The notes beneath the pieces are model-generated. The model made no database searches. It saw only the letters and a program-made list of their open reading frames with translations, and was not told the origin of the DNA. Positions 10,182-40,553 of a DNA stretch of 64,000 bases are shown piece by piece. The stretch is from contig CAYQTJ010000004.1 of NCBI GenBank assembly GCA_964420395.1, forward strand, positions 2,506-66,505, written 5' to 3'. This DNA comes from an uncultured Fibrobacteraceae bacterium. Its GTDB lineage: Bacteria; Krumholzibacteriota; Krumholzibacteriia; LZORAL124-64-63. The position numbers and the translations under genes were made by a program. Every line of letters starts with the position of its first letter. Position 1 is the first letter of the stretch.

Positions 10182-10294
10182 CCGCGGGAATGGCCGGTCC
10201 GGCGGACGGTCGGGGCCGTCCGTCCGCGGCCGACCGGGGGTGATCGGCCGGTCGTGCCGCGCCGCCACGGCGCGGGTGCGGAAAGGACGGGGTC

Positions 10295-11368: not shown

Positions 11369-11381
11369 GATCGGGACGAAC

Positions 11382-12556: not shown

Positions 12557-12586
12557 ACCGGACCGCGTGCGCGCGGCAGGCGCGGC

Positions 12587-15152: not shown

Positions 15153-15203
15153 CCTGCCGTAGCGACCAGCCGGCGATCGAGCCGCCAGGACAAGGAGCGC
15201 CGC

Positions 15204-17139: not shown

Positions 17140-18470
17140 ACGGCTGGCGACGTCGGGGGGCGGGACTGGCGGCCGGGGGGGCGGCGCTGCTGCTGGGCGT
17201 GGCCGGCCTGCTGCTGGACGGCCCCCGGGGCCTGGTGGACTGGCGCGCCGCGCGCGTGGTGGTCCTCGAGAGCGACGACTGGGGCCTGAGCGGCTTCTTC
17301 CCGGAGAGCGCGCCGGCCGCCCCGGCGCGGGCCCTGCTCGGCGGGGGCTTCCCGGCCCCCTATTGGGACTCGACGCTCGAGGACAGCCTCGATGTGGCGT
17401 CCCTGGCCGCGCTCCTGGCGAGGCACGTCGGGCGGGACGGCCTGCCGCCGGTCCTGCAGGCGAACATGATCGTCTCCGCCCTGGAGCCTGAGCGGGCGGA
17501 GGGGGACGCCGCCGCGCCGCTCGCCTGGCGGCGGATCGACCTGCCCGACCTGCCGCGCGGCTACCCGCGCCCCGGCCTGGCCGCGGCGGTGGACGCGGCG
17601 ATCGCCGCGGGGGTCTGGCGGCCCGAGTTCCACGGCGCCTTCCACTACGATCCCGCCCGCCGCCGCGCGGCGCTGGAGTCGCGTCCCGATCTGCGCCCGT
17701 TGCTCGAGGAGACGGTGCTGTTTCCCGGCAGCGACACGGCGTGGGAATTGGGGGCCTGGCGGGCCACCGGGGAGTTGCGGGCGGAACTGGCCGCGGCCGT
17801 GGCGGTCTTCACGGCCCGCTTCGGCCACCGCCCGGTGTCGATCTGCGCGCCCGACTACGTCTGGGATCCCCGTTGCGAGGGGCTGTGGGCGGAGCAGGGG
17901 CTGACGGTGATCCAGGCCAAGCGCGAGCAGCGCGACTCCCGCCGGCCGGGGGGCGGGCCGGCGGCGCGGTTGCGCAAGGTGCTCGGGCGTGCCTGGGATC
18001 GCTGGCGCCACCCGGAGCGGCTCTACCTCGACCGCAATTGCCGGTTCGAGCCGGCGCAGGCGGCCGACAGCGCGGCCGCCGTGGCGGGCTGTGTCGCCGC
18101 GGTCCGGCGGGCCTGGGCTCGCGGCGAGCCGGCCGTCATCGAGACCCACCGCGTGAACTTCGTCAGCCTCGCCCCCGGGGCCGCCGCGCGGGGGCGGCGC
18201 CAACTCGACCTCCTGCTGGCTGCCCTGGCGGCCGAGCCGGGGGGAGGGCCCCTCTATCTGACCGATGCCGAACTGGCCCAATTGGCGCGGGGAGGCACCT
18301 GCCTGGCGTGGCGCGGCGACCGCGTCGTGCTCCGCAACCTGACCCGCGGGACCCGCGTGGCGACGATTCCCGGCCCGGCGGGCGGGGCGGACTCGCTGCT
18401 GGCGATCGCCCCCGGGACCACGCTCGTCCGGCGGGCCGCGGGGGGCCATTTGCGGGCGCCCCGACGGTGA
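17136..18470 (+). CDS. Hypothetical protein with an N-terminal TM anchor. Possibly polysaccharide-deacetylase/DUF2334-like.
   Basis: GTG start overlaps the upstream stop. Weak resemblance only. Confidence 0.35.
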   Translation: MNGWRRRGAGLAAGGAALLLGVAGLLLDGPRGLVDWRAARVVVLESDDWGLSGFFPESAPAAPARALLGGGFPAPYWDSTLEDSLDVASLAALLARHVGRDGLPPVLQANMIVSALEPERAEGDAAAPLAWRRIDLPDLPRGYPRPGLAAAVDAAIAAGVWRPEFHGAFHYDPARRRAALESRPDLRPLLEETVLFPGSDTAWELGAWRATGELRAELAAAVAVFTARFGHRPVSICAPDYVWDPRCEGLWAEQGLTVIQAKREQRDSRRPGGGPAARLRKVLGRAWDRWRHPERLYLDRNCRFEPAQAADSAAAVAGCVAAVRRAWARGEPAVIETHRVNFVSLAPGAAARGRRQLDLLLAALAAEPGGGPLYLTDAELAQLARGGTCLAWRGDRVVLRNLTRGTRVATIPGPAGGADSLLAIAPGTTLVRRAAGGHLRAPRR

Positions 18471-18474: not shown

Positions 18475-18504
18475 TTGACCCGCCGTCCCTGCTTGTGATA
18501 TCCT
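18475..18504 (+). promoter_or_regulatory. sigma70-like promoter with an extended -10: TTGACC-N18-(TGa)TATCCT. Upstream of the first giant protease gene.
   Basis: -35 at 18475-18480. TG at 18496-18497. -10-like hexamer at 18499-18504. This leaves a ~245-nt leader before the ATG at 18754. Confidence 0.35.
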
Positions 18505-18753: not shown

Positions 18754-21700
18754 ATGAGATTGCGCCCCGCTCTCCTGGCCCTGTTCCTCTGGGTGATGCC
18801 GGCCCTCACCATCACGCTCTGTTCGAGCCCGCGGGAGGCGTGCGGCGCCGTCTCCGGTAGCGGCGCTCAGCTGCGCCAGGAGGTCACGTTCCCCCTTTCC
18901 CGCTCCGGATGGCCGGTGGCGGGGGAGGTCGGCGCCGCGCTGCTCACCGACGAACCGGGCGATCCGCGGGTGCCTTACCACGACGTCGTGCTGCTGCTCC
19001 CGCCGGGGCGGCGGGTCGCGGAGGCACGCTTCGCTCCTCGCGATCCGAGCGAGCGGGAACTGCCGGCGGCGGTGGTCACCGCGGCCCCGGCGCGGGTTTC
19101 CGCCGGGGGCGAGGTGGCCTGGGACCGGCTGCCGGCCGACGGGCCGGCGTATCCGCCGGCCTGGGGGGAACTGCTGGGCGAGACGGTCTGGCACGGCTAC
19201 CGCCTGGCCCACGTACGGCTCTACCCCTGGCAACTGACGCGGGGGGGCACGGGGACGTGGGACGGCGCACGCGCCGCAGCGGGGATGACGATCGAACTGG
19301 CGCTGGCTCCCGTGGCGGACGGCGGCGGTCGCCGGCGCCCGGCGCCGGAGCCGGACGCCGCGCTCAGGGCGCGGCTGCGGGGGCTGGTGGCGAATCCGGA
19401 CGCCGTCGCCGCCTACCCGCTGCCGGGCGTGGCGGCGGCGCGGGATGGCGCCGGCTTCTCGCCGACCTGGGCGCCGAGCCTGCTGGGCGACGATGTGGCC
19501 TACGTGATCATCACGAGCGCCGCGCTCGCGGCGGAGTTCCAGCGCCTGGCCGATTACAAGACCGCGCGGGGCGTCCCGACGGTCGTGCGCACGATCGAGG
19601 CGATCGTCGCCGCGGCGCCGGCCGGGATCGATCTGCCGGCGCAGATCCGCGCCTATTGCGCCGAGGCATACCGCGACTGGGGGACGACGGCTGTCCTGCT
19701 GGGCGGCGACACGCAGATCGTGCCGACGCGACGGATCCTCAACACGCTATATCCCGCGGGCGAGGGGACCGAGATGCCCGTGGACCTCTACTTCGCCTGC
19801 CTGGACGGGGACTGGAACGCCGACCACGACGAGAAGCTCGGCGAAGCCTACATGAATCCCTACGATTCGGGTGACTGGGCCGATCTGGCGGCCGAACTGG
19901 CGGTCGGGCGGGCGCCGGTCGCCACGGCGGCGGAGGCCGCCGTGTTCGTGGACAAGGTCATGGCCTACGAGGGGGGAACCGTCGCCGCGCCGGCTGGCCG
20001 CGCCCTCTTCCTGAGCGAAGTGCTCTTCCCGAGCGCCTGGACCGTCGGCACCCCCATCACCGACGACGGCGCGACGTACAGCGAGGCGATCATCAACGAA
20101 GTCATGGCGGAGTCGCCCATGCCCCCGGCGGCGACGCGGATGTACGAGGCGACCGCGCTCTGGCCCGGCTCGGTCCCCGAGCGGCGCCTCGCGGTGATCG
20201 ACTCGCTCAACACCGGGCACTTCGGGCTGGTCAACCACATCGGCCACGGTTTCTTCTACAACCTGTCCGTGGGCGATGCGACGCTCGATCTGAAGGATGC
20301 CGCCGGGGTCCACAACGACCCGAGCTACTTCATCCTGAACAGCCTCAACTGCTCCTCGTCCGCCTTCGACTACAACAGCATCCTCGAGCGGCTGGTGCTG
20401 AATCCGGGAGGCGGCGCCGTGGCCACGATCGGCTCGGCGCGCGCCGCCTTCCCGACCACCGCCAGCCAGTACCAGCGGGAGTTCTACGCCGCGCTGTTCC
20501 GCGACGGGATCCGGGAGGTGGGCGCAGCGGTGGCGGCCTGCCGCCTGCCTTTCCAGGGGCTGACCGCCGGGAACACGCCGGAGCGCTGGACGCACATGAC
20601 CCTGACGCTGCTCGGCGATCCGACGCTGGCGGTCTGGACCGCGCCGCCGGTGCCTCTCGTGGTCAGCGCGCCGGACACCCTGCCGCTCGGCGGGCAGGAG
20701 GTCGTCGTGAAGGTGACCCGCGGCGGGCTGGCCGTGGCGGGGGCCATGGTCTGCCTGCTCAAGACGGGCGAGTGCTACGCGCGCGGCTACACCGATGCGG
20801 GCGGGGAGGCCCGCCTGCCGGTCGTGGTGAAGTCGGCGGGGGCCGTCGCGCTGAGCGTGACGGCGGCCGACTCGCGCCCCGCGACGCGGACCCTGCCGGT
20901 GAGCGTCGCGCCGAGCCCGTACCTGAAGGTGACCTCGGTCCAGTTCCGGGATGACGGCACGCTCGGCTCGGTCGGCAACGGCGACGGCCTGCCGGATGCC
21001 GGCGAAACGGTGGCGTTGCTGCCGACCTTCACGAACAGCGGGACGGTCCTGGCCACCGGCGCGGTCTCGATGTCGGCATGGACCCTGACCCCGGGGGCGA
21101 CGCTGCTGTCGACCGCGACCGCCGTGCCGCCGCTGGCGCCCGGCGCGTCCGCGGTCGGCGGGAGCCCGCTGCTGCTGCGTCTCGAGGCCGGCGTGCCGGA
21201 CGGCACCCTGTTCACGGTGCAACTGGCCGCCATCGACGGCGGGCGGGTCTACTTGGACGAGATCTCCGAGCGGGGACGCGCGCCCGACCTGCGGCCGACG
21301 ATCATGACGTGGAGCGACTCGCCCGGGGGGGACGGCGACGGCGTGATCGAGCCCGACGAGGAGATCGTGCTGCGCGTGACGCTCCTGAATCCAGGCGGCG
21401 GGCGGGCCTCCGGCCTGACGGCCACCGTCGAGCCGGGAATCGGACTGACGGTGGTGGATGGCAGCGGCGCCTGGCCCGACATCGCGCCGGGGGGCGAGGC
21501 GACTCCGTCCGACGCGGTGAGCGTGCGCCCCGCCTCGCCGGTGTCGGCCGCCCGCGGCACGCTGGTCGTGCAGGACGCCTTCGGACACGAGTGGCGCCAG
21601 CGCTTCGACCTCACGCCGCCCGAACGGCCGACGGGAGTGACCGGCACCTCGCCCGCCGGCGGGGAGTGCCTCCTGCTCTGGACGCCGAACCCGGAGGCGG

Positions 21701-23562
21701 ACCTCTACGGGTATCACGTCTACCGGTCGCTGCAGCCGAATTACGGCTACGTGCGGCTCACCGCGGAACCGGTCACGGGCGGGAGCTTCTACCGCGACAC
21801 CGGACTCGCCGCGCTCACCCGGTACTACTATCAGATCGCCGCCGCCGACTCGTCGCGGCTGCTGAGCCGCGTCACCTCGACGCTCGGCGTCAGCACGGTG
21901 CCGTCGGAGCAGACCGGCTTCCCGATCGAGCTGCCCGCGGAGACGTCGAGCCATCCGGTCGTCGGAGACGTCAACGGCGACGGCCGGCTCGACGTGGTGC
22001 TGCCGGCCAATTACATCTACGTGTGGGACGCGGATGGGGTGGAACTGCGGAACGGCGACGGCGACAGCCAGACGCTCGGCCCCTTCAACTCCACGGCCGC
22101 CGACTGGGCGCCGGCCGGTGCCACGCTGGCCAACCTGACCAGCCGTCCGGGGCTGGAGATCATCGCCTCGAATCGCACCGCGCGGCAGATCTTCGTCTAC
22201 CAGGGGGACGGCACGGTGGCCGCGGGCTGGCCGCGCACGATGAGCGACTGGAACTGGGCGACGCCGGTGGCGGGGGATCTCGACGGGGACGGCGACCTGG
22301 AGGTCATCGCGAACACCGTCACGGGGACGCTCTACGTCTGGCACCACGACGGCACGGACTTCTTCGACGGCGACGCCAACCCCGCCACGGTCGGGGTGTT
22401 CCAGGTGCGCGTCAACGAGTGGTACAGCTTCTGCTCGCCGGCGCTCGCCGACCTCGACCAGGACGGGAAGCTGGAGATCATCCTCGGCACCCGCTACAGC
22501 GGCACGACGCCGGACGTGCTGATGGCGCTGCGCAACGACGGCACGAACCTGCCCGGCTTCCCGGTCAGCTTCGGCCTCTACGGCGAGACGCTCTGCAGCC
22601 CGGCCGTGGGCGATCTCGACCTGGACGGGCGGCTGGAGATCGTGGTGGTCACCGAGAACGATCGCCTGCAGGTCATCCGGCACACCGGGCTGTCGATGGC
22701 GCCGTTCCCGATCCTCTTCGTCTCCAACAACAACCCCGACGGGCTGAGCACCCCGTCGCCGGCGCTCGCCGACCTCGACGGCGACGGCTATCCGGAGATC
22801 GTGGCGGTGTCGGTCACCGACGCGCTGACCGCCGCGGTGCACGCGGTCAGGCGGACCGGCGTCAACCTGTCCGGCTGGCCGCGGGCGGTGGGGGGGAATT
22901 CGGAATCGTCGCCGGTGGTGGCGGACATCAGCGGCGACGGGCATCCGGACGTCCTGTTCGGCATCGGCGGCGGGGCCGACAGCAGCCCCAACGCGCTCTA
23001 CGCGTGGCGCCACGACGGCGGCGTGGTGCCGGGATTCCCGCTGCAGCTCAGCGGGCCGATCCGCCCGACCCCCTGCCTGACGGACCTGAACCAGGACGGG
23101 GACATCGACCTCGTCTACGGCGGCTGGGACCTGCAGATGCACGTCTGGGACCTGCCGGCGGCCTGGAATCCCGACCTGGCGTTCTGGCCCACCTTCAAGG
23201 GCAATCCGCTGCGCAGCGGCCTGGCCGGCCAGCTGTGGATCACCGCCGTGCCCGGGGGGGAGGACGGCGCCCCGCCGGCGGCGGTCGCGCTCGAGGGGAA
23301 TCGGCCCAACCCGTTCAATCCGCGCACGCGGATCACCTTCGCCCTGCCCGGCCCCGGCGCGGTCCGGGCCCGGCTGACCATCTACGACCTGCGGGGGCGG
23401 CGCGTGGCGCAGCTGGTGGACGGCTCCCTGCGGCCCGGGCGCCACACCGTCGACTGGTACGGGCGCGACGACGGGGGCGGGGCGGTCGCCAGCGGGGTCT
23501 ATCTCTGCCGGCTGACGGCCGGCGGGGTGGTGACGGAGCGCAAGATGACCCTGGTGCGGTGA
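18754..23562 (+). CDS. Giant secreted multidomain protein. Domain order is signal peptide, C25 gingipain-like cysteine peptidase, Ig/CARDB-like domains, FN3, an FG-GAP/VCBS beta-propeller of about 8 blades, and a T9SS-type C-terminal sorting domain.
   Basis: Signal peptide MRLRPALLALFLWVMPALT. C25 motifs LLGGDTQIVPTR, catalytic His in NHIGHGFF and catalytic Cys in LNSLNCSSSAFD. Repeated GDxxGDGxxExxxx FG-GAP units. C-terminus NPFNPRTRITFALP...LTIYDLRGRRVAQL...GVYLCRL...RKMTLVR matches the T9SS CTD. Confidence 0.8.
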   Translation: MRLRPALLALFLWVMPALTITLCSSPREACGAVSGSGAQLRQEVTFPLSRSGWPVAGEVGAALLTDEPGDPRVPYHDVVLLLPPGRRVAEARFAPRDPSERELPAAVVTAAPARVSAGGEVAWDRLPADGPAYPPAWGELLGETVWHGYRLAHVRLYPWQLTRGGTGTWDGARAAAGMTIELALAPVADGGGRRRPAPEPDAALRARLRGLVANPDAVAAYPLPGVAAARDGAGFSPTWAPSLLGDDVAYVIITSAALAAEFQRLADYKTARGVPTVVRTIEAIVAAAPAGIDLPAQIRAYCAEAYRDWGTTAVLLGGDTQIVPTRRILNTLYPAGEGTEMPVDLYFACLDGDWNADHDEKLGEAYMNPYDSGDWADLAAELAVGRAPVATAAEAAVFVDKVMAYEGGTVAAPAGRALFLSEVLFPSAWTVGTPITDDGATYSEAIINEVMAESPMPPAATRMYEATALWPGSVPERRLAVIDSLNTGHFGLVNHIGHGFFYNLSVGDATLDLKDAAGVHNDPSYFILNSLNCSSSAFDYNSILERLVLNPGGGAVATIGSARAAFPTTASQYQREFYAALFRDGIREVGAAVAACRLPFQGLTAGNTPERWTHMTLTLLGDPTLAVWTAPPVPLVVSAPDTLPLGGQEVVVKVTRGGLAVAGAMVCLLKTGECYARGYTDAGGEARLPVVVKSAGAVALSVTAADSRPATRTLPVSVAPSPYLKVTSVQFRDDGTLGSVGNGDGLPDAGETVALLPTFTNSGTVLATGAVSMSAWTLTPGATLLSTATAVPPLAPGASAVGGSPLLLRLEAGVPDGTLFTVQLAAIDGGRVYLDEISERGRAPDLRPTIMTWSDSPGGDGDGVIEPDEEIVLRVTLLNPGGGRASGLTATVEPGIGLTVVDGSGAWPDIAPGGEATPSDAVSVRPASPVSAARGTLVVQDAFGHEWRQRFDLTPPERPTGVTGTSPAGGECLLLWTPNPEADLYGYHVYRSLQPNYGYVRLTAEPVTGGSFYRDTGLAALTRYYYQIAAADSSRLLSRVTSTLGVSTVPSEQTGFPIELPAETSSHPVVGDVNGDGRLDVVLPANYIYVWDADGVELRNGDGDSQTLGPFNSTAADWAPAGATLANLTSRPGLEIIASNRTARQIFVYQGDGTVAAGWPRTMSDWNWATPVAGDLDGDGDLEVIANTVTGTLYVWHHDGTDFFDGDANPATVGVFQVRVNEWYSFCSPALADLDQDGKLEIILGTRYSGTTPDVLMALRNDGTNLPGFPVSFGLYGETLCSPAVGDLDLDGRLEIVVVTENDRLQVIRHTGLSMAPFPILFVSNNNPDGLSTPSPALADLDGDGYPEIVAVSVTDALTAAVHAVRRTGVNLSGWPRAVGGNSESSPVVADISGDGHPDVLFGIGGGADSSPNALYAWRHDGGVVPGFPLQLSGPIRPTPCLTDLNQDGDIDLVYGGWDLQMHVWDLPAAWNPDLAFWPTFKGNPLRSGLAGQLWITAVPGGEDGAPPAAVALEGNRPNPFNPRTRITFALPGPGAVRARLTIYDLRGRRVAQLVDGSLRPGRHTVDWYGRDDGGGAVASGVYLCRLTAGGVVTERKMTLVR

Positions 23563-23567
23563 GGGAA

Positions 23568-23602
23568 CGGGGCGCGGCCATTGACCGCGCCCCGCTTCTC
23601 TG
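23568..23602 (+). terminator. Intrinsic-terminator-like hairpin after the first giant gene. It has a 10-bp perfect GC stem, cggggcgcgg/ccgcgccccg, and an 8-nt loop.
   Basis: Stem is 23568-23577 and 23586-23595, followed by a CTTCTCT pyrimidine/T-rich tract. Confidence 0.45.
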
Positions 23603-23609
23603 GTAAAAT
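23581..23609 (+). promoter_or_regulatory. sigma70-like promoter with an extended -10: TTGACC-N17-(TGg)TAAAAT. Upstream of the second giant protease gene.
   Basis: -35 at 23581-23586. TG at 23601-23602. -10 at 23604-23609. This leaves a ~240-nt leader to the ATG at 23854, with a GGAGGG RBS. Confidence 0.45.
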
Positions 23610-23853
23610 GGACGAAGTCACACCGGAGTGGGGCGCCGTCGGCGCCGCCGCTCCGCTACCACCTCCCGGAGGGCTGGACGACCGCACCTGGGTAACGGGC
23701 AGCAGTGGCGGGCCGGCAGGGCCGGCCCCGCATTGGCAGCAGCGTTCACAGTCCCCCGAGGAGGCATCCGTTTCCTCACGCAGAAGTCGATGAAGACACG
23801 TGCTTCTCGCGGCTCCGGCCGCGAGTTACGTCGCTATTGACCGGAGGGTATGC

Positions 23854-26800
23854 ATGGATCGCCATCGCCTGATGAGCCGCATCAGCCTGACCGTCGCGAC
23901 GGCCGCGGCGCTGACCTGGGGGACCGTGGCCCTCGGCGCCGGGGCCCCCGCCGCCTTCTTCGAGGGGAGGATCACCGGCGAGCTCTCGTGGGAAACGAAC
24001 GCCTCCGGGGCGGTGACGCCCCGCCTCGCCGGCGGTCGGGCCTGGGCCGAGACGGATCGGCCCGCGCTGGCGGTGCTCGACCTGCGCCTGCTGGTGCCGC
24101 TGGAGGCGGCGCCGGGCGGCGTCGAGGTGGTGCCCCTGGCGACGCACCGCGTGCGGGTGCCGGGGCGGCTGGCCGTCGGTTCGCCGCTCATCAGCAGCGA
24201 CGGGGTCGCCGTGGTCGCGGCCCGGCTCCCTCTGGACGGGGCGGTCTTTCCGGCGCAGTGGGGCGAATTCGGCGGCACGCAGGTCTGGCGGGGCTTCCGT
24301 CTCGCGTCGGTGCGGGTCTACCCGCTGCGGGCCGTGCGTGACGCGGCGGGCGAGTGGAGCGAACTCGAGGTGCTCGACAGCTACGCCATCCGGTTCCTGC
24401 CGGGCGGCGGCAAGCTCGCGGCGGGGGACGCCGCGGAGATCGCCGTGCGCGAACGTCGGGTGCCGGGCGAGCGGGCGCGCGCCGAGGCGGCGCTGGCCGG
24501 CCTGATCGCGAACCCCGGAGGGCTGTCCGGCTACGCGCGCGCCGACGGTGCGGTCGTGGCGGAGCCGGCGGGGGGCTTCGCGCCGAGCCAGACCCCCAGC
24601 CTGGAGGGGAGCCCGGTCCGTTACCTGATCATCACCCGGGAGGCGCTGGCCCCGGCCTTCCAGCGCCTGGCCGATCATCGCACCGCCCTGGGGGACCCTG
24701 CGGTCGTGCAGACGGTGGAGTGGATCGAGGCCAACTACCGCCACGGCGCGGATGTCCAGGAGACGATCCGGCTCTTCATCCGCGAGGCCTATCAGCGCTG
24801 GGGTGTGGAGTACGTCCTGCTCGGCGGCGACACCGACGTGGTCCCGGCCCGCTACATCCACAGCGAGTACTATCCCCCCTCGTCCAGCACCGACGTGCCG
24901 ACCGACCTCTATTTCGGGTGCCTGGACGGGAACTGGAACGCCGATGCCGACGATCTCTTCGGCGAGCACTACGCCAGCTATCTGAATCCCGGCGACAACG
25001 CCGATCTCGCCGACGAGGTGCGGGTGGGGCGCGCCCCGGTCAGCACCGTGAACGCGGTGAACGCGTTCATCGACAAGGTCATCGGCTACGAGCAGCAGGT
25101 GGCGGGGACGGGCTGGCCCAACCGGATGCTGTTCGCCGCGGAGGTGCTGTTCCCGGCCGACTACACCGCGGGGGCGACGATCACCCTCGACGGCGCGAGC
25201 TTCGCCGAGCAGTTGAACAACACCGCGCTCACCCCCTGCACCGGGATGACGCCGACGCGGCTTTACGAGTCGTATCCGCTCTGGCCCGGCTCGACGCGCC
25301 TCTCGCGCGCGGCGTTCACGGACTCCGTCAATACCGGTCACTTCGGCATCGTGAACCAGATCGGTCACGGCTTCTTCGTCAACATGTCGCTGGGCGACGC
25401 CAATTTCACCGTCGCCGACGCCGACGGATTGCACAACACGGGGCGCCCGTTCCTGCTCTATGCCCTCAACTGCGCCTCCGCGGCGTTCGACTACGCCTGT
25501 CTGATGGAGCGCTTCGTGCAGAATCCCAACGGCGGCGCGGTCGCGGCGATCGGCGCGGCCCGGGCCGCGTTCCCGTATACGGCGAACGACTATCAGATTG
25601 AGTTCTTCCGGCTGCTGTTCTGCAACGGCATCCACCGGCTGGGCGACCTGATGAGCCTCAGCCGCCTCCCGCAGCTGGCAGACACCTACTACAACACGGC
25701 CGACCGCTGGACCTTCCTGAACTACACGCTGCTCGGCGACCCCGGCCTGGCGGTGTGGACCGGTGCTCCGCGGCCGGCGAGCGTGGCGGCTCCCGCCTCC
25801 CTCACGGCCGGCGCCCAGTCGGTGACGGTGACCGTGACGGCCGACGGCCTGCCGGTCGAGGGGGCGCTCGTCTGCCTGAGCAAGGAGGGCGACGACTACG
25901 CCTCGGACTTCACGGATGCCGCGGGCCAGGTCTCCCTCGCCTACACCCCGGTCAGCGCCGGCGCGGCCAGCCTGGTCGTAAGCGGAGCGGGGCTGGCCCG
26001 CGAGGCGCGCGATCTGCCGGTGACGGTCCCCGGCGCGTACATCGCGCTCGACGCGGTGACGATCACCGATGACGGCTCCGCCGGCAGCAGCGGCAACGGG
26101 GACGGGCGCTTCGACGCCGGCGAGACGGTGGCGGTGGTCACCCAGTATCGCGACACCGGCACGGGGGGGGCGCTGAACTGCCTCGCCACTCTCAGCGGGG
26201 GGGCGGCCGGCCTGACCATCCTGGACGGCACGGCCAGCGTCGGCAACGTGCCGTCGGGCAGCGTCAAGGCGGCCACGGAGCCGTTCCTGGTGCGTGCCGA
26301 CGCCGCCCTGCCCGACGGTCTGCACGTGGCGTTCTCGGTCACGGTGACCGCGCAGGCCGGGGGGCCGTTCGCCAGCGAGTGGAATCCGGTCGTGCTGGCG
26401 CCGGAGCTGGCGCCGATCGCGCTGACCTGGTCGGACCTGGTCTACGGCAACGGGGACGGCGTGCAGCAGAACGGCGAGCGGATCACCGTGGCGGTGAAGC
26501 TCAAGAACTACGGCGACGGGCTGGCCGGGGCGATCACCGGGCGGCTGCGCAGCATGGACCCGGGCGTGGTCCTGCGCGACACCGTCGCGTCCTACGGCAC
26601 GCTGGCGCTGCTGCAGGAAGGGACCGGATCGGTGCCGTTCTCGCTGTCGGAGACGGACGTCAGCGTCGACCACCCCTGCTGGATCCTCTTCAGCGATCCG
26701 CAGGGGCGCACGGTGCGGCACGACTTCGTACTGAACGCGCCGGCGGCGCCGGCGGCGCCGGCGACCAGCGGCACGCTCGGGCCCGACGTCATCGGCCTGA

Positions 26801-28725
26801 CCTGGGCGCCGGTGACGACCCCGCACCTGCGCGGCTACCACGTCTACCGCGGCACCAGCGCCGGCGGTCCGTTCGTGCGGGCGAACGCCGACCTGGTCGA
26901 GCGCACGTCCTACTTCCGCGACTCCGGTCTCGCCCTGCTGACCCAGTACTTCTACCGGATCGCGGCGGTGGACTCCTCGCTGGTGGAGGGGCCGTTCTCG
27001 GCCGTGGTCTCGCAGAGCACCGCACCGCCGGAAATGGGCGGCTTCCCGCTGCCCATGACTAAGGAGACGAGCGGCCACAACGCCGTCGGCGACGTGGACG
27101 GCGACGGCACGCTCGAGGTCGTGCTCGGGGCGGACGAGGTCTACGTCTGGACCGCCGGCGGTGGCGAGCTGCGCGACGGTGACAACGACGCCCAGACGCT
27201 CGGGCCGTTCACGAACATGTCCAGCGGCACCACGAATCTGAGCTTCTCGCCGTCCGGCATCACCCTGGCCGATCTGGACGACGTACCGGGGCTCGAGATC
27301 ATCGCCAGCGAGAGGGTCCAGAACAAGATCCACATCTTCCGCCGGGACGGCAGCGAACTGCCGGGCTGGCCGCGGTCCCTGGTCGGCACGAGCTGGAACT
27401 GGACCACGCCCGCGGTCGGCGACGTGGACGGCGACGGCGCCCCGGAGATCGTCTGCAACGACATCGCCGGCCGCACCTTCGCCTGGCACCTCGACGGCAC
27501 GGAACTGAGGGACGGCGACAGCAATCCCGCCACGCTCGGCGTGTTCGTGGCGCGCGCCGGCGCGACCTACGAGTATGGCTTCAGCTCGCCCGCGCTGTGC
27601 GACCTGGACGGTGACGGGCGCAAGGAGATCATCTTCGGCTCGAAGCTCTCCGGCGTGCCCAACTACCTCTACGCCTATCGCTACGACGGCAGCCAGGCGA
27701 CCGGCTTCCCGTTCGCGACCGGCAACCTCGGCGCCATCGGGTGCAGCCCCAGCCTTGGAGACCTCGACAACGACGGTCAGCGGGAGATCGTCTTCGTGTC
27801 GGAAGCCGACTCGCTCTATGTCCTGCGGCGGAACGGCAGCCGCTATCCCGGCTTCCCGATCTGGTTCACCGCCAACAGCACCAGCAGCGGCGCCTCCTGT
27901 CCCAGCCCGGCGCTGGCCGACTTCGACGGCGACGGGCGGCTGGAGATCGCGGCGGTGACGGTCACGAACGCCGCGAGCGCGGCCCTGCGGCTGATCGACA
28001 CCGACGTCGCGGGCGGCACCTCCGGCCAGACCATGCCGGGCTGGCCGAAGAGCCTGCCGGGCAACTCGGAGTCCAGTCCCCTGGCGGGGGACATCGACGG
28101 CGACGGCGGCATCGACATCGTGTTCGGGATCGGCGGGGGCGACGAATCGACCCCCAACAACATCTACGCCTTCGAGGCGAGCGGCGCCGCGGTGCCTGGC
28201 TTCCCGATCACCGTCGGGGGGCCGATCCGGCCCTGCCCCGTGCTGTGCGACCTCGACGGGGACGGCAAAGTCAACATCGTCTATGGCGGATGGGACCTGC
28301 AGGTCCACGTCTGGAACCTGCCGTTCGCCTACGATCCGGATCTGATGCCGTGGCCCACCTTCCGCGGCAGCCACTGGCGCGACGGCGTCTACCGGCAGCC
28401 CACCCTGACCGGTGCGCCGGGGGAGGCGCCTCCGGCGGCGCTGGCCGTGGCGCCGAACTTCCCGAACCCGTTCAATCCCGTCACGACGGTGCGGCTCAAC
28501 GTGCCGGGCCCGTCCGGGCAGAGCGTGCCGCTCGGCCTGCGGGTGTACGACCTGCAGGGGCGGCTGGTGCGCGTCCTGCACGCCGGCCCGGCCGCGACCG
28601 GCTGGCGGACCTGGATCTGGGACGGTCGCGACGGCGCCGGGCAGCCGCAGGCGAGCGGCGTGTACCTGCTCCGGGCCGAAGCGGGCGGGCAGGTGCGGAC
28701 GCAAAAGATGGCCCTGGTGAAATGA
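23854..28725 (+). CDS. Giant secreted multidomain protein, paralog of 18754-23562. Same architecture: C25 gingipain-like peptidase, Ig/CARDB, FN3, FG-GAP beta-propeller and T9SS CTD.
   Basis: VLLGGDTDVVPARYIHS. NQIGHGFF (His). LNCASAAFD (Cys). FG-GAP repeats GDVDGDGTLEVVLG, GDVDGDGAPEIVCN, CDLDGDGRKEIIFG, GDLDNDGQREIVFV, ADFDGDGRLEIAAV, GDIDGDGGIDIVFG and CDLDGDGKVNIVYG. CTD is NPFNPVTTVRLNVP...LRVYDLQGRLVRVL...GVYLLRA...QKMALVK. Confidence 0.8.
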   Translation: MDRHRLMSRISLTVATAAALTWGTVALGAGAPAAFFEGRITGELSWETNASGAVTPRLAGGRAWAETDRPALAVLDLRLLVPLEAAPGGVEVVPLATHRVRVPGRLAVGSPLISSDGVAVVAARLPLDGAVFPAQWGEFGGTQVWRGFRLASVRVYPLRAVRDAAGEWSELEVLDSYAIRFLPGGGKLAAGDAAEIAVRERRVPGERARAEAALAGLIANPGGLSGYARADGAVVAEPAGGFAPSQTPSLEGSPVRYLIITREALAPAFQRLADHRTALGDPAVVQTVEWIEANYRHGADVQETIRLFIREAYQRWGVEYVLLGGDTDVVPARYIHSEYYPPSSSTDVPTDLYFGCLDGNWNADADDLFGEHYASYLNPGDNADLADEVRVGRAPVSTVNAVNAFIDKVIGYEQQVAGTGWPNRMLFAAEVLFPADYTAGATITLDGASFAEQLNNTALTPCTGMTPTRLYESYPLWPGSTRLSRAAFTDSVNTGHFGIVNQIGHGFFVNMSLGDANFTVADADGLHNTGRPFLLYALNCASAAFDYACLMERFVQNPNGGAVAAIGAARAAFPYTANDYQIEFFRLLFCNGIHRLGDLMSLSRLPQLADTYYNTADRWTFLNYTLLGDPGLAVWTGAPRPASVAAPASLTAGAQSVTVTVTADGLPVEGALVCLSKEGDDYASDFTDAAGQVSLAYTPVSAGAASLVVSGAGLAREARDLPVTVPGAYIALDAVTITDDGSAGSSGNGDGRFDAGETVAVVTQYRDTGTGGALNCLATLSGGAAGLTILDGTASVGNVPSGSVKAATEPFLVRADAALPDGLHVAFSVTVTAQAGGPFASEWNPVVLAPELAPIALTWSDLVYGNGDGVQQNGERITVAVKLKNYGDGLAGAITGRLRSMDPGVVLRDTVASYGTLALLQEGTGSVPFSLSETDVSVDHPCWILFSDPQGRTVRHDFVLNAPAAPAAPATSGTLGPDVIGLTWAPVTTPHLRGYHVYRGTSAGGPFVRANADLVERTSYFRDSGLALLTQYFYRIAAVDSSLVEGPFSAVVSQSTAPPEMGGFPLPMTKETSGHNAVGDVDGDGTLEVVLGADEVYVWTAGGGELRDGDNDAQTLGPFTNMSSGTTNLSFSPSGITLADLDDVPGLEIIASERVQNKIHIFRRDGSELPGWPRSLVGTSWNWTTPAVGDVDGDGAPEIVCNDIAGRTFAWHLDGTELRDGDSNPATLGVFVARAGATYEYGFSSPALCDLDGDGRKEIIFGSKLSGVPNYLYAYRYDGSQATGFPFATGNLGAIGCSPSLGDLDNDGQREIVFVSEADSLYVLRRNGSRYPGFPIWFTANSTSSGASCPSPALADFDGDGRLEIAAVTVTNAASAALRLIDTDVAGGTSGQTMPGWPKSLPGNSESSPLAGDIDGDGGIDIVFGIGGGDESTPNNIYAFEASGAAVPGFPITVGGPIRPCPVLCDLDGDGKVNIVYGGWDLQVHVWNLPFAYDPDLMPWPTFRGSHWRDGVYRQPTLTGAPGEAPPAALAVAPNFPNPFNPVTTVRLNVPGPSGQSVPLGLRVYDLQGRLVRVLHAGPAATGWRTWIWDGRDGAGQPQASGVYLLRAEAGGQVRTQKMALVK

Positions 28726-28856
28726 CCCGGCGGCGGGCCGACGTCACGCCGCCGGTTGACGGCGCGGCGCCCGCTCCTTAGCATCACGGTCCGGCCCGCG
28801 GCCCCTCCCAGCCGGAGGGGCCGCGGCTTTGGCGGCTCCGGACGGCGGGAGAGGGC

Positions 28857-30476
28857 ATGGGCGGACGACGGGCCACGTCGCTGGCGCTGGGGGTGGCGCT
28901 GGCCGCGCTGGCCGCGCTGGGGGGCGGCGGCTGCGGTGGCGGGGGGGGCGCGGGGCCGCGCGCCGGCGGCACCGCCATCCTCGCCCTGGCGGCCGAGCCC
29001 GATCTCCTCAATCCGCTGCTCACCGGCTCCGCCTACGCGACGCAGCTGCTGGGGCTGATGCAGGACGGGCTGATCGAGATGGACGAGGACCTCGAGTTCC
29101 GTCCCCGCATCGCCAGCGGCTGGACGTTCGCTCCGGACAGCCTCTCCGTGACTTTCCGGCTGCGACCCTGGGTCTGGTCCGACGGCGAGCCGCTGACCGC
29201 GCGCGACGTGGCGGCGAGCTTCGCCCTGCTGACCGATCCGGTCATCGCCAGCCCGCGTCGCGGGGGGCTGGCGAACGTCACCGCGGTGACGGCGCTGGAT
29301 CCGGCCACGGTGCGCTACGACTTCCGGAGCCGCCGCCCGCGAACGGAGGCGCTGTTCGCCGCGGCGCACGCGCTGCTGCCGGCGCACCGGACCGCCACGC
29401 TGGAGCCTGCCCGGGTGCGGGAGTGGCCGCTCAATCAGCAACCGCTCTCCTCCGGTCCGTACCGGCTCGAGAGCTGGCAGCGCAACCGCCAGGTGGTGCT
29501 GACGCGCAACGAACGCTATCCCGGACCGCGGCCGCGGCTCGATCGACTCGTCTTCCGGATCATTCCGGACGAGACGTCGCGGCTGATCGAGTTGGAAACG
29601 GGCGGCGTCGATTTCGTGGACGAGATCCCGCCGCAGGCGGCCCGCGCCCTGGCGGCCTCGGGCCGGGCTACGGTGCTGCGGGTTGGCGGCCGGCTGGTGG
29701 GGCAGGTGCAGTGGAACCTGCGCAGTCCCCTGCTGGCCGACCGCGCGGTCCGCCGCGCCCTCTCGTTCGCCATCGATCGCGCGGCGTTCATCGACGGCCT
29801 GCTGTGCGGTTACGGGGCGCCGGCGGCGAGCCCCATCCCGCCCTGCCTCTGGGCCCACGACGCCTCGCTGCTGCCCGACCGCCACGAGCCGCAGCGGGCG
29901 CGTGACCTGCTCGACTCCGCCGGCTGGCGCGACAGCGACGGGGACGGCGTGCGCGAGCGGGATGGCCGCCGCCTGTCGCTGCTGCTGATCACCCGCAAGG
30001 GCGACCCGGTGCGGGAGGACGGCGCGGCGCTGATCGCGGCGAACCTGCGGTCGGTGGGGGTGGAGGTGCGCCCGCGGATCCTCGAATTCGGGGCGGCGCT
30101 CGACGAGGTGCGGCAGGGCCGCTTCGACGGCTACCTCGGCTATTTCCAGCCGCGGCTGGTGCCCGATCCCTCGGCCCAGTTGCGCTCCGACGCCACGGAC
30201 CGCTTCAACTACGGCAGCTACGCGAGCGCCGCCGTCGATTCCCTGCTCGACGCCGCGCTCGCCTGCCCCGACCGGGCCCGCGCCGCACCGCTCTGGCACC
30301 GCCTGCAGCGGATCGTGGCGGAGGACGCGCCGTTCGCCTTCCTCTTCTACCCGGAAACGCTCTGCGGCGTCGGCCCGCGCCTGCGGGGGGTGCGCCCGCA
30401 CGTGCTGTCGCCGTTCAACAACGTGGGCGAATGGTGGATCGGCTCGCCGGACCGCGAGGCGAAGGCCGGGCATTGA
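28857..30476 (+). CDS. ABC transporter substrate-binding protein, family 5 (peptide/nickel/oligosaccharide type). Probably a lipoprotein.
   Basis: Lipoprotein-like signal with a Gly-rich linker. SBP_bac_5-like organisation (LIEMDEDLEFRPRIASGWTF...). Confidence 0.65.
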   Translation: MGGRRATSLALGVALAALAALGGGGCGGGGGAGPRAGGTAILALAAEPDLLNPLLTGSAYATQLLGLMQDGLIEMDEDLEFRPRIASGWTFAPDSLSVTFRLRPWVWSDGEPLTARDVAASFALLTDPVIASPRRGGLANVTAVTALDPATVRYDFRSRRPRTEALFAAAHALLPAHRTATLEPARVREWPLNQQPLSSGPYRLESWQRNRQVVLTRNERYPGPRPRLDRLVFRIIPDETSRLIELETGGVDFVDEIPPQAARALAASGRATVLRVGGRLVGQVQWNLRSPLLADRAVRRALSFAIDRAAFIDGLLCGYGAPAASPIPPCLWAHDASLLPDRHEPQRARDLLDSAGWRDSDGDGVRERDGRRLSLLLITRKGDPVREDGAALIAANLRSVGVEVRPRILEFGAALDEVRQGRFDGYLGYFQPRLVPDPSAQLRSDATDRFNYGSYASAAVDSLLDAALACPDRARAAPLWHRLQRIVAEDAPFAFLFYPETLCGVGPRLRGVRPHVLSPFNNVGEWWIGSPDREAKAGH

Positions 30477-40552: not shown

Positions 40553-40553
40553 G

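What the first reader, a model, noticed from the sequence alone, without database searches (positions are those of the whole stretch)
18754..28725. Tandem pair of 1.6-kaa secreted proteins combining a C25 gingipain-like peptidase, an FG-GAP beta-propeller and a T9SS C-terminal domain
Two adjacent paralogs of 1603 and 1624 aa share an unusual architecture. Each has a signal peptide, a long pro-region, and a C25 peptidase domain with both catalytic residues intact: NHIGHGFF / NQIGHGFF for His and LNSLNCSSSAFD / LNCASAAFD for Cys. These are followed by CARDB/Ig-like and FN3 modules, seven to eight FG-GAP/VCBS blades and a Por-type CTD. Gingipain-family peptidases fused to a full integrin-like propeller are not a described enzyme class. 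The propeller could act as a substrate- or cell-surface-binding platform. The two copies are clearly divergent rather than a recent duplication, and each has its own promoter. An ABC family-5 binding lipoprotein and a HEXXH lipoprotein lie immediately downstream. That fits an extracellular protein or peptide scavenging locus.
Basis: partly seen in the sequence, partly recalled or inferred. Interest (0 to 1): 0.7.

Follow-up and report, generated by a model that had tools for sequence, protein, structure and literature searches.

The report
Giant gingipain-like proteases with propeller domain
Two neighbouring genes encode very large, probably secreted cysteine proteases of the gingipain (C25) family that carry an eight-bladed propeller and a type IX secretion tail; the family is widespread in the uncultured phylum Krumholzibacteriota and has not been studied, so it is a real but only moderately surprising variant of a known enzyme type.

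Summary
Window 18754-23562 and 23854-28725 (+ strand) encode paralogs of 1602 and 1623 aa that are 45% identical. Each has a full-length Peptidase_C25 domain (about 205 bits). Its His/Cys dyad aligns to RgpB His211/Cys244 and is invariant in the family. An Ig-like domain, two beta-sandwiches, an FN3 domain, an eight-bladed FG-GAP propeller and a T9SS type-A C-terminal domain follow.

The architecture is not unique. More than 400 homologs exist, over 100 of them full length. Nearly all come from Krumholzibacteriota MAGs, with 1-2 copies per genome, and NCBI names them "C25 family cysteine peptidase". A WOR-3 relative has the same layout and scores for Propeptide_C25. I found no paper describing the fusion.

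Flanking-domain homology and profile scores place the proteins with gingipains, not with the PorU sortase. Gene order around them is conserved across the phylum: Wzy_C, GT1, WecA-like, methyltransferase, unknown protein, C25 gene(s), orphan oligopeptide-type SBP5 lipoprotein, metzincin-like HEXXH lipoprotein.

The most likely reading is a zymogen-type cell-surface endopeptidase with adhesin-like modules, analogous to RgpA/Kgp, that feeds peptide capture. Substrate specificity, T9SS presence in the genome and activity are all untested. It is a new variant of a known kind, of moderate interest.

The parts
18475..18504 (+). Sigma-70-like promoter site upstream of p1 (TTGACC, 18-nt spacer, TATCCT, with a TG extension).
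   Evidence: 3 sites in the region against 0.2 expected, all of them intergenic. This is a consensus match only.
18754..23562 (+). Gene p1, a C25-propeller-CTD protein of 1602 aa. It belongs to the diverged paralog lineage.
   Evidence: GGAGG lies 7-8 nt upstream of the ATG. Orthologs are P0105 at 80%, and P0102 and P0101 at 58-59%.
18754..18846 (+). p1 signal-peptide-like N-terminus (MRLRPALLALFLWVMPALTITL...).
   Evidence: Basic residues followed by a hydrophobic stretch. No dedicated signal-peptide predictor was run.
18859..19425 (+). p1 N-terminal beta-sandwich domain, probably a propeptide.
   Evidence: Mapped from p2 through the family alignment. See the p2 entry for the evidence.
19501..20631 (+). 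p1 Peptidase_C25 catalytic domain. The His498 codon is at 20245-20247 and the Cys533 codon at 20350-20352.
   Evidence: Pfam 205.8 bits at aa 250-626.
20653..21873 (+). p1 Ig-like domain, two beta-sandwich modules and an FN3 domain.
   Evidence: Mapped from p2. p1 itself gives no Pfam hit here at E<=0.01.
21907..23187 (+). p1 eight-bladed FG-GAP propeller.
   Evidence: FG-GAP_3 118.6 bits and FG-GAP 65.5 bits. Seven DxDxDG-type loops.
23302..23559 (+). p1 C-terminal sorting domain (T9SS type-A-like).
   Evidence: FlgD_ig 31.8 bits against a cut-off of 27. TIGR04183 21.6 bits against a cut-off of 23, so just below it.
23581..23609 (+). Sigma-70-like promoter site upstream of p2 (TTGACC, 17-nt spacer, TAAAAT; 10 of 12 positions match).
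   Evidence: A GC-rich hairpin right after the p1 stop overlaps it.
23854..28725 (+). Gene p2, a C25-propeller-CTD protein of 1623 aa. It belongs to the widely conserved lineage.
   Evidence: Exact match to P0001. GGAGG lies upstream of the ATG.
23854..23943 (+). p2 signal-peptide-like N-terminus.
   Evidence: Of 116 family members, 114 have a hydrophobic 11-mer within the first 50 aa.
23944..24543 (+). p2 N-terminal beta-sandwich domain plus helical linker, probably a gingipain-type propeptide.
   Evidence: The AF2 beta-sandwich has pLDDT 70-90. p2 residues 69-180 align colinearly with the region of WOR-3 protein P0234 that scores 54 bits for Propeptide_C25. There is no direct Pfam hit.
24622..25752 (+). 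p2 Peptidase_C25 catalytic domain. The His505 codon is at 25366-25368 and the Cys540 codon at 25471-25473.
   Evidence: Pfam 203.2 bits. The dyad aligns to RgpB H211/C244 and is invariant in the family.
25774..26028 (+). p2 Ig-like domain of the gingipain type.
   Evidence: Peptidase_C25_C 26.5-27.4 bits against a cut-off of 25. The family profile aligns through the RgpB IgSF domain up to residue 432.
26041..26727 (+). p2 pair of beta-sandwich modules (CARDB-like), each starting with a GNGDG...GE motif.
   Evidence: AF2 strands with pLDDT 80-90. No Pfam hit in p2. CARDB scores 21.8 bits in the homologous region of P0234 and matches 1 of 11 family members.
26734..26997 (+). p2 FN3 domain.
   Evidence: PDB 3mpc at E 6e-5 with the single sequence and 3.9e-7 with the profile.
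27031..28353 (+). p2 eight-bladed FG-GAP propeller. It has seven canonical DxDxDG loops, one degenerate loop, and six 'DGxxxxG(W/F)P' motifs.
   Evidence: Foldseek matches CRTAC1 at E 2.8e-10 and integrin alpha at about 1e-7.
28459..28722 (+). p2 T9SS type-A C-terminal domain.
   Evidence: TIGR04183 29.4-31.4 bits against a cut-off of 23. FlgD_ig 32.7 bits. The family profile aligns to the PorU CTD. AF2 shows a beta-sandwich.
28857..30476 (+). Orphan SBP_bac_5 (oligopeptide/nickel-type) solute-binding lipoprotein, the conserved downstream neighbour.
   Evidence: Pfam 257.7 bits. NCBIfam Opp4A 179 bits, below its cut-off. Lipobox-like N-terminus. Found next to the C25 gene in 49 of the 83 loci searched. 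A promoter-like site lies at 28756-28784.
30517..32157 (+). Lipoprotein with an HEFGH motif, a metzincin-like putative zinc peptidase and a conserved neighbour.
   Evidence: About 27 orthologs keep the HExxH motif and a third His; most read HE[FL]GHxLGxxxH. PDB matches to MMP-9 are weak, at E 0.3-0.7. No Pfam or NCBIfam hit.
12587..18470 (+). Conserved upstream glycan-assembly block: Wzy_C family, GT1, WecA-like GT4, methyltransferase, and an unknown membrane-anchored protein of about 443 aa.
   Evidence: Synteny is kept in 35-56 of the 83 loci searched, depending on the gene. A functional link to the C25 genes is not shown.

Best explanation
p1 and p2 are gingipain-like (MEROPS family C25) cysteine endopeptidases made as large multi-domain precursors.

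**Shown**
- Each has a complete C25 catalytic domain with the His/Cys dyad in place.
- In p2 the catalytic domain is followed by a gingipain-type Ig-like domain (scored in p2 only; mapped by alignment in p1).
- The domain order is: signal-like N-terminus, N-terminal beta-sandwich, catalytic domain, Ig-like domain, two beta-sandwiches, FN3, eight-bladed FG-GAP propeller with Ca-binding-type loops, and a T9SS type-A C-terminal domain.
- The family is conserved across Krumholzibacteriota.

**Inferred**
- The protein crosses the inner membrane by Sec.
- The N-terminal domain acts as an inhibitory propeptide, as in gingipains.
- The C-terminal domain directs export through a type IX secretion system, which leaves the enzyme on the cell surface or releases it.
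- The beta-sandwich, FN3 and propeller modules take the place of the haemagglutinin/adhesin domains of RgpA and Kgp. They would hold the enzyme on a polymeric substrate or on a surface.
- The enzyme cuts extracellular proteins. The peptides produced would be captured by the adjacent oligopeptide-type binding lipoprotein and trimmed by the adjacent metzincin-like lipoprotein.
- The two paralogs probably differ in substrate or in binding target.

Cleavage specificity is unknown.
For: **C25 membership**
- Pfam Peptidase_C25 scores 205.8 and 203.2 bits over the whole model.
- The dyad aligns to RgpB H211/C244 and is invariant in the family.

**Gingipain-like rather than PorU-like**
- The family profile against PDB gives RgpB 79 bits (E 1e-21) and Kgp 54.7 bits. 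PorU scores 58.9 bits, of which 17.5 come from the CTD.
- Peptidase_C25_C passes its cut-off in p2.
- The N-terminal domain is colinear with a Propeptide_C25-scoring region in a WOR-3 homolog.
- Foldseek with the N-terminal model ranks Kgp and RgpB (E about 1e-11) above PorU (4e-8). The catalytic part of that model is of low confidence.

**Propeller and CTD**
- AF2 pLDDT is 78.7, with eight blades and a beta-sandwich. Foldseek matches CRTAC1 and integrin alpha.
- All 14 C-terminal fragments tested hit TIGR04183 at E<=0.01.
- The same tail sits on unrelated proteins in related genomes: three plastocyanin-like proteins, a PQQ/SBBP propeller, a P_proprotein-domain protein and a weakly GDSL-like ORF. 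That is what a sorting signal should look like.

**Context**
- SBP5 and the metzincin-like lipoprotein lie directly downstream in many genomes.
- Each gene has its own promoter-like site.
Against: - No T9SS core gene lies in the window, and the rest of the genome could not be searched.
- The catalytic domain model is poor (pLDDT 30-60), so the pocket geometry is unknown.
- RgpB Asp163 has no aligned counterpart.
- No family member scores directly for Propeptide_C25.
- The SBP5 gene has no permease or ATPase partner nearby.
- The dispersed second paralogs have no SBP5 or HEXXH neighbour.
- The low copy number (1-2 per genome), constant length and phylum-wide fixed position next to glycan-assembly genes look more like a housekeeping envelope function than a fast-evolving nutritional protease.
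- There are no expression or activity data.
Confidence: 0.58

Rival explanations
1. Envelope-maintenance protease. The enzyme is exported as in the main explanation, but its job is to process or mature the cell's own surface proteins (other T9SS cargo, an S-layer, fimbriae) or to mediate cell-cell or cell-matrix attachment. It would not serve nutrition.
For: - There are one or two copies per genome, all of near-constant length (about 1590-1630 aa). The position is fixed across the phylum, between glycan-assembly genes and LexA/Lon.
- The window as a whole is rich in envelope and LPS genes: two GT9 genes, DUF3108, PMT_2 and Wzy_C.
- From my own knowledge, not tested here: gingipains process other surface proteins in P. 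gingivalis.
Against: - The conserved downstream genes are an oligopeptide-type binding protein and a metzincin-like lipoprotein, which fits peptide use better.
- The synteny may simply be inherited gene order. The intergenic gaps of 130-290 bp carry their own promoter-like sites.
Confidence: 0.2
2. A PorU-like sortase fused to a PorZ-like propeller. The family would be the T9SS attachment enzyme of Krumholzibacteriota. It would cut the C-terminal domains off cargo proteins and join the cargo to a glycolipid made by the adjacent Wzy_C, glycosyltransferase and WecA-like genes. The propeller would deliver the glycolipid, as PorZ delivers A-LPS to PorU in P. gingivalis (PMC8545088).
For: - PorU is a C25-family enzyme with a CTD.
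- The NCBIfam PorU model gives partial hits of 93-99 bits.
- The propeller-plus-CTD model hits PorZ 5m11 at E 7e-9.
- 6 of 14 C-terminal fragments weakly hit the PorZ model.
- An O-antigen-ligase-family gene and glycosyltransferases are conserved just upstream.
- The family has a low, stable copy number.
Against: - The PorU model score is far below its cut-off of 420 and covers only the catalytic core.
- The profile score for RgpB (79 bits) is about twice the catalytic-domain score for PorU (about 38 bits).
- The flanking domains are gingipain-type: Peptidase_C25_C, and Propeptide_C25 by transitive homology.
- The TM-score to PorZ is only 0.14, so the match reflects a generic propeller plus CTD.
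- The same propeller-CTD cassette matches the unrelated NCBIfam family T9SSA_dep_M6i.
- The dispersed paralogs lack the glycan-gene context.
Confidence: 0.08
3. The C-terminal domain is not a working T9SS signal here because the organism has no T9SS. The proteins would then stay periplasmic or leave by another route, and the tail would be only an Ig-like (FlgD_ig-type) module.
For: - No T9SS gene lies in the 64-kb window.
- p1 falls just below the TIGR04183 cut-off.
- Pfam labels the domain FlgD_ig.
- No paper links Krumholzibacteriota to T9SS.
Against: - p2 passes the TIGR04183 cut-off, and all 14 family C-terminal fragments tested hit TIGR04183 at E<=0.01.
- The tail is always the extreme C-terminus and recurs on unrelated secreted-type proteins in related genomes.
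- NCBI names homologs 'T9SS type A sorting domain-containing protein'.
- A review states that CTD proteins are limited to the FCB superphylum, where T9SS occurs (PMC12398890).
Confidence: 0.07

Closest known systems
High-molecular-weight gingipains RgpA and Kgp of Porphyromonas gingivalis (MEROPS C25)
   Same: - The general layout matches: signal peptide, N-terminal propeptide, C25 catalytic domain with a His/Cys dyad, Ig-like domain, non-catalytic binding modules, T9SS C-terminal domain.
- The catalytic and Ig-like domains are homologous. The family profile scores 79 bits against RgpB and 54.7 bits against Kgp.
   Different: - The binding modules are two beta-sandwiches, an FN3 domain and an eight-bladed FG-GAP propeller, not haemagglutinin ('cleaved adhesin') domains.
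- The Arg-pocket residue Asp163 of RgpB has no aligned counterpart, so Arg or Lys specificity cannot be assumed.
- Identity to RgpB is below 20%.
- The host is a free-living environmental lineage with 74% GC, not an oral Bacteroidota pathogen.
PorU, the T9SS C-terminal signal peptidase and sortase (PDB 6za2; NCBIfam NF033707)
   Same: It has a C25-family catalytic core and a T9SS-type CTD in one large multi-domain protein. The dyad region and the CTD both align.
   Different: - It scores 93-99 bits against a cut-off of 420, and only the catalytic core aligns.
- PorU has no FG-GAP propeller.
- The domains flanking the catalytic core here are gingipain-type.
Uncharacterised C25 / FG-GAP / CTD proteins in databases, for example OYD16205.1 (UniRef100_A0A235BXD0) from a candidate division WOR-3 bacterium, and 'C25 family cysteine peptidase [Candidatus Krumholzibacteriia bacterium]' entries
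   Same: - The architecture is the same.
- Identity to p2 is 31% colinear over 1000 aa for the WOR-3 protein and 40-83% for the Krumholzibacteriota proteins.
   Different: Apart from sequence, nothing differs for the Krumholzibacteriota entries; the WOR-3 protein is about 290 aa longer and carries a second FN3-like segment. The window proteins are members of this unstudied family. None of these entries has experimental data.
NCBIfam NF052323, T9SS-dependent M6-like inactivated metalloprotease
   Same: The C-terminal part of its model (positions about 785-1029) matches the last propeller blades plus the CTD of p1 and p2, at 81-95 bits. All 14 family fragments tested match it.
   Different: Its N-terminal catalytic-type domain is different (M6-like, and inactivated). 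The total score is far below the cut-off of 600.
Integrin alpha and CRTAC1 FG-GAP beta-propellers
   Same: FG-GAP repeats carry DxDxDG Ca-binding-type loops. These are the best structural matches for the propeller, and CRTAC1 scores 36 bits against the family profile.
   Different: From textbook knowledge, integrin alpha propellers have seven blades, whereas this one has eight. TM-scores are only 0.36-0.46, and there is no integrin-type partner subunit.

Membership tests
Peptidase family C25 (Pfam PF01364 / MEROPS C25) | Profile score above the curated cut-off over the whole catalytic domain. | tested here: met
   205.8 and 203.2 bits against a cut-off of 23, covering model positions 1-373 of 374.
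Peptidase family C25 (Pfam PF01364 / MEROPS C25) | Catalytic His then Cys, aligned to RgpB His211 and Cys244. | tested here: met
   The dyad is p2 H505/C540 and p1 H498/C533. It is invariant in 66 aligned sequences and at least 95% conserved in 116.
Peptidase family C25 (Pfam PF01364 / MEROPS C25) | Caspase-like alpha/beta fold of the catalytic domain. | tested here: inconclusive
   The AF2 catalytic region has pLDDT of only 30-60. Even so, Foldseek places Kgp and RgpB at E about 1e-11 with target TM about 0.4.
Gingipain subgroup (RgpA/RgpB/Kgp-type) | N-terminal inhibitory propeptide (Pfam Propeptide_C25). | tested here: inconclusive
   Neither p1, p2 nor any of 11 family members gives a direct hit. 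The region is colinear with a Propeptide_C25-scoring region (54 bits) in WOR-3 homolog P0234.
Gingipain subgroup (RgpA/RgpB/Kgp-type) | Ig-like domain directly after the catalytic domain (Pfam Peptidase_C25_C). | tested here: met
   p2 scores 26.5-27.4 bits against a cut-off of 25, and 4 of 11 members match. The profile aligns through the RgpB IgSF domain. p1 itself does not reach E<=0.01.
Gingipain subgroup (RgpA/RgpB/Kgp-type) | Acidic S1 pocket residue that sets Arg or Lys specificity (RgpB Asp163; Kgp Asp516). | tested here: not met
   In the profile alignment, RgpB Asp163 falls in a target insert with no family column. The Kgp alignment was not inspected. This rests on alignment only, without a reliable structure.
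PorU T9SS sortase (NCBIfam NF033707) | Equivalog-domain score at or above 420 across the N-terminal, catalytic and C-terminal regions. | tested here: not met
   92.7 and 99 bits, with only model positions 365-732 aligned.
T9SS type-A cargo (TIGR04183 C-terminal sorting domain) | C-terminal domain scoring above the cut-off, at the extreme C-terminus. | tested here: met
   p2 scores 29.4-31.4 bits against a cut-off of 23. p1 scores 21.6, just below it. All 14 family fragments tested hit at E<=0.01. AF2 shows a beta-sandwich.
T9SS type-A cargo (TIGR04183 C-terminal sorting domain) | A T9SS machinery (SprA/Sov, PorK/L/M/N, PorV, PorU) encoded in the same genome. | not testable with these tools
   None lies in the 64-kb window. 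Whole genomes could not be scanned. No paper covers Krumholzibacteriota and T9SS.
FG-GAP / integrin-alpha-type beta-propeller | FG-GAP repeats above the cut-off that fold into a closed propeller. | tested here: met
   FG-GAP_3 scores 118.6 and 99 bits; FG-GAP scores 65.5 and 40.6 bits. AF2 shows eight blades at pLDDT 78.7. There are seven DxDxDG loops plus one degenerate loop.
CARDB domain (Pfam PF07705) | Profile score above the cut-off in the modules between the Ig-like and FN3 domains. | tested here: not met
   p1 and p2 give no hit even at E<=5. One of 11 members matches at E 0.002. P0234 scores 21.8 bits against a cut-off of 22.7. The model shows beta-sandwiches.

The most novel reading that the evidence does not exclude
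The family is the type IX 'attachment complex' compressed into one chain. A C25 sortase domain (the PorU role) would be fused to a glycolipid-presenting propeller (the PorZ role). It would anchor CTD cargo to a surface glycan built by the conserved neighbouring genes: Wzy_C family, GT1, WecA-like, methyltransferase and the unknown protein. That would explain why the genes sit in this fixed position across Krumholzibacteriota.
Probability: 0.07. Interest if true: 0.75.

Novelty: new variant of a known kind. Interest (0 to 1): 0.38.

Why it matters
**What is known.** Gingipains are the best-studied T9SS cargo and are major virulence factors. Almost everything known about C25 peptidases comes from one oral pathogen.

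**What this family adds.** The C25 catalytic core, with its gingipain-type propeptide and Ig-like domain, has been combined with a Ca-binding-type eight-bladed propeller. It has been kept as a conserved 1-2-copy gene in a whole uncultured phylum, and it also occurs in WOR-3.

**If the enzymes are active surface proteases.**
- They are probably a main route by which these widespread sediment, soil and wastewater bacteria attack environmental protein.
- The propeller would be a new kind of substrate-targeting module for this peptidase family.

**Limits.** The finding does not overturn anything. The family is already auto-annotated as C25 peptidase. T9SS cargo with exotic domain combinations is common in the FCB group.

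Tried and rejected
- **Literature.** Searches for Krumholzibacteriota with T9SS or gingipain, and for Peptidase_C25 with FG-GAP, found no relevant paper.
- **Rfam.** A scan of the whole window found nothing.
- **Direct Pfam scans.** The N-terminal 250 aa and the 720-970 region of both proteins gave nothing, even at E<=5.
- **AlphaFold2, residues 28-1050.** With an 11-sequence alignment the catalytic domain reached only pLDDT 30-60.
- **PorU/PorZ-fusion idea.** I raised it from the synteny and the PorZ Foldseek hit. I downgraded it after the profile comparison and the flanking-domain evidence.
- **Other C25 genes nearby.** A PorU catalytic fragment rebuilt from the printed alignment found only family members in 1.5 Mb of related loci.
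- **T9SS core genes.** None are in the window, and I had no way to scan whole genomes.
- **Conserved unknown neighbours.** NCBIfam and PDB searches of the 443-aa protein and the HEXXH lipoprotein gave no significant family assignment.
- **Antisense ORFs.** The 1232-aa and 1642-aa ORFs on the opposite strand were rejected as GC-rich shadow ORFs, because they lack the GC3 signature.

Full report
**1. What is there**

The window is about 74% GC, and nearly all genes are on the + strand.

- ORF p1 runs from ATG 18754 to its stop at 23562 (1602 aa).
- ORF p2 runs from ATG 23854 to its stop at 28725 (1623 aa).

In DNA this GC-rich, long ORFs arise by chance. Antisense ORFs of 1232 and 1642 aa overlap both genes. 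Several results show that the + strand ORFs are the real genes:

- They have the coding signature, with GC3 of 0.93 against GC2 of about 0.54.
- A GGAGG motif lies 7-8 nt before each ATG.
- p2 is identical to database protein P0001.
- Both give strong domain hits.
- The two proteins are 45% identical over 1580 aa.

**2. Domain anatomy**

Pfam finds a complete Peptidase_C25 domain in each protein (205.8 and 203.2 bits; cut-off 23). It also finds FG-GAP_3 and FG-GAP repeats and a C-terminal FlgD_ig domain. In p2 it finds Peptidase_C25_C as well. NCBIfam adds TIGR04183, the T9SS type-A sorting domain, at 29.4 bits in p2 and 21.6 in p1 (cut-off 23).

The His of N(H/Q)IGHGFF and the Cys of LNC(S/A)S(S/A)AFD align to RgpB His211 and Cys244. 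This holds for the single sequence and for a 66-sequence family profile. Both residues are invariant in the 66-sequence alignment and at least 95% conserved among 116 full-length members.

An AlphaFold2 model of p2 residues 1046-1623 has pLDDT 78.7. It shows eight four-stranded blades followed by a beta-sandwich. The sequence has seven canonical DxDxDG loops and one degenerate loop. The best structural matches are CRTAC1, PorZ (propeller plus CTD) and integrin alpha.

A model of residues 28-1050 is good for several parts: the N-terminal beta-sandwich, the Ig-like domain, two further beta-sandwiches and the FN3 domain. It is poor for the catalytic domain, at pLDDT 30-60. FN3 is confirmed by sequence against 3mpc.

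Neither the N-terminal 250 aa nor the 720-970 region matches any Pfam model directly. However, p2 aligns colinearly (residues 69-1042, 31% identity, E 2e-124) with a 1912-aa protein from candidate division WOR-3, P0234 = OYD16205.1. In that protein Pfam scores Propeptide_C25 (54 bits) and CARDB (21.8 bits, just under its cut-off) in the corresponding places.

**3. How common it is**

A search with p2 returned 409 proteins at E<=1e-10. More than 100 of them are 1590-1630 aa long with the same Pfam set. Where they carry a name, it is 'C25 family cysteine peptidase', 'T9SS type A sorting domain-containing protein' or 'VCBS repeat-containing protein', from Candidatus Krumholzibacteriia.

A scan of one genome per GTDB species found 128 loci encoding relatives, of which 78 were fetched. 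Nearly all named ones are Krumholzibacteriota MAGs. A few records labelled 'Fibrobacteraceae' or 'Gemmatimonas' share the same gene order and are probably mislabelled.

Many genomes have two copies. In 17 of the 83 loci searched the copies are tandem, as here. Elsewhere the second copy lies far away, for example at 0.69 and 2.09 Mb on the 4.7-Mb contig JADJQR010000001.1. p1 has its own orthologs at 58-80% identity, so the duplication is old.

The catalytic-plus-Ig region has 11,443 cluster representatives at E<=1e-3 and 1,478 at E<=1e-30. The best 150 mostly place the C25 domain at about residue 230 of proteins 1500-1990 aa long.

I found no paper on this architecture, or on T9SS or gingipains in this phylum.

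**4. Gingipain-like or PorU-like?**

PorU, the T9SS sortase, is also a C25 enzyme with a CTD. PorZ, which hands A-LPS to PorU (PMC8545088), is a propeller-plus-CTD protein. The genes here also sit next to glycan-assembly genes. I therefore considered a fused PorU-PorZ function. The evidence points the other way:

- The NCBIfam PorU model scores 93-99 bits against a cut-off of 420, and only its catalytic core aligns.
- The family profile scores RgpB at 79 bits and Kgp at 54.7 bits. The PorU catalytic domain scores about 38 bits, plus 17.5 for the CTD.
- The flanking domains are the gingipain-type propeptide (transitive) and Ig-like domain.
- Foldseek ranks Kgp and RgpB above PorU, although this uses a weak model.
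- The match to PorZ has a TM-score of only 0.14.
- The same propeller-CTD cassette matches an unrelated NCBIfam family, T9SSA_dep_M6i.

**5. Context**

The gene order is: Wzy_C family, GT1, WecA-like GT4, methyltransferase, unknown 443-aa membrane protein, C25 gene(s), SBP_bac_5 lipoprotein, HEXXH lipoprotein, PfkB kinase, LexA, Lon. This order recurs in most related loci. WecA-like and the unknown protein each occur in 56 of the 83 loci searched, GT1 in 52, SBP5 in 49 and Wzy_C in 35.

Two GT9 heptosyltransferases, DUF3108 and a PMT_2 protein lie further downstream. No T9SS core gene is in the window.

The SBP5 protein is closest to oligopeptide and nickel binders (Opp4A 179 bits, below its cut-off). 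It has no permease or ATPase gene beside it.

The HEXXH lipoprotein has no Pfam or NCBIfam family. About 27 orthologs keep the HExxH motif and a third His; most read HE[FL]GHxLGxxxH, a metzincin-like zinc site with the third His one residue late. PDB matches to MMP-9 are not significant.

Sigma-70-like promoter sites lie in each of the three intergenic gaps, 3 found against 0.2 expected. The genes are therefore probably separate transcription units.

The dispersed second paralogs sit in a different conserved context, between a radical-SAM protein and a Ddl-like ATP-grasp protein. They have no SBP5 or HEXXH neighbour.

**6. The C-terminal domain as a sorting signal**

An HMM of the family's tail finds the same domain at the C-terminus of unrelated ORFs in related loci: three plastocyanin-like proteins, a PQQ/SBBP propeller, a P_proprotein-domain protein and a weakly GDSL-like ORF. 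All 14 family C-terminal fragments tested hit TIGR04183. This is the pattern expected of a shared export tag. A review states that CTD proteins and T9SS are confined to the FCB superphylum (PMC12398890). Whether this genome encodes the machinery could not be tested.

**7. Mechanism**

The best-supported reading is a zymogen-type, T9SS-exported, surface or released cysteine endopeptidase. Its beta-sandwich, FN3 and propeller modules would play the role of the adhesin domains of RgpA and Kgp. It would work upstream of an oligopeptide-binding lipoprotein and a metzincin-like lipoprotein.

- **Shown:** family membership, dyad, domain order, conservation and synteny.
- **Inferred:** export route, propeptide inhibition, surface location, substrate and the link to peptide uptake.

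Cleavage specificity is open. RgpB Asp163 has no aligned counterpart, so Arg/Lys-pNA substrates alone would be a poor test.

The fixed position and low copy number leave room for a housekeeping envelope role (rival 1). The sortase reading remains possible at low probability (rival 2).

**8. Verdict**

This is an unstudied variant of a known enzyme kind that is nonetheless abundant in databases. It is conserved in Krumholzibacteriota and present in WOR-3. Interest is moderate.

Noticed in passing
window 23612-23853: The roughly 245-nt leader between the promoter-like site and the p2 start codon is conserved at the DNA level with the equivalent regions of L006 and L007. It also folds more stably than shuffled sequence (z -2.96). 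The p1 leader does not (z +1.3). There is no Rfam match. It may be a regulatory 5' UTR.
   Followed up: partly
window 30517-32157, and orthologs in about 27 loci (e.g. L007 16041-18194): This lipoprotein family has no Pfam or NCBIfam model. It keeps HE[FL]GHxLGxxxH, a metzincin-like zinc motif with the third His one residue later than in the canonical motif. In the window copy the Gly is replaced (HEFGHALCIGNH).
   Followed up: partly
window 17139-18470: A protein of about 443 aa with one N-terminal hydrophobic segment lies directly upstream of the C25 genes in 56 of the 83 loci searched. It has no Pfam or NCBIfam family and no meaningful PDB match (one short 58-residue hit to a designed protein). 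The stop-to-stop ORF listed as 16548-18470 overlaps a methyltransferase gene (16471-17139) that is read in another frame.
   Followed up: partly
L003, L045, L050, L054, L059, L067 (around 7000-16000 in each): The dispersed second paralogs share their own conserved neighbourhood. A radical-SAM protein of about 874 aa lies upstream on the opposite strand. A D-Ala-D-Ala-ligase-like ATP-grasp gene lies downstream. In three of these loci (L050, L059, L067) a plastocyanin-like protein with the same C-terminal domain lies 5-9 kb upstream.
   Followed up: partly
window 19747-23445 (-) and 23776-28704 (-): Antisense ORFs of 1232 and 1642 aa overlap the two genes. They lack the third-position GC signature and are shadow ORFs typical of very GC-rich DNA.
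   Followed up: yes
window 40434-48001: This stretch holds two GT9 heptosyltransferase genes, a DUF3108 protein and a PMT_2 (ArnT-like) glycosyltransferase. Together with the Wzy_C, GT1 and WecA-like block at 12587-16505, they make the window unusually rich in envelope-glycan genes.
   Followed up: no
loci L009, L011, L016, L017, L019-L021, L046 and others: Several MAG records titled 'uncultured Fibrobacteraceae bacterium', 'Gemmatimonas sp.' or 'Gemmatimonadales bacterium' carry the same gene and the same synteny as the Krumholzibacteriia records. Their taxonomic labels are probably wrong.
   Followed up: no
P0158 (1988 aa; on a 1.9-Mb contig): This relative has the same C25-plus-propeller layout but ends in TPR repeats, and no sorting-domain hit was reported at the C-terminus. 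Not every member of the wider family appears to be T9SS cargo.
   Followed up: no
window 23563-23600: A GC-rich inverted repeat (GGGGCGCGG...CCGCGCCCC) follows the p1 stop codon directly and overlaps the -35 element of the p2 promoter-like site. The terminator scan did not call it, because it lacks a T-run.
   Followed up: no
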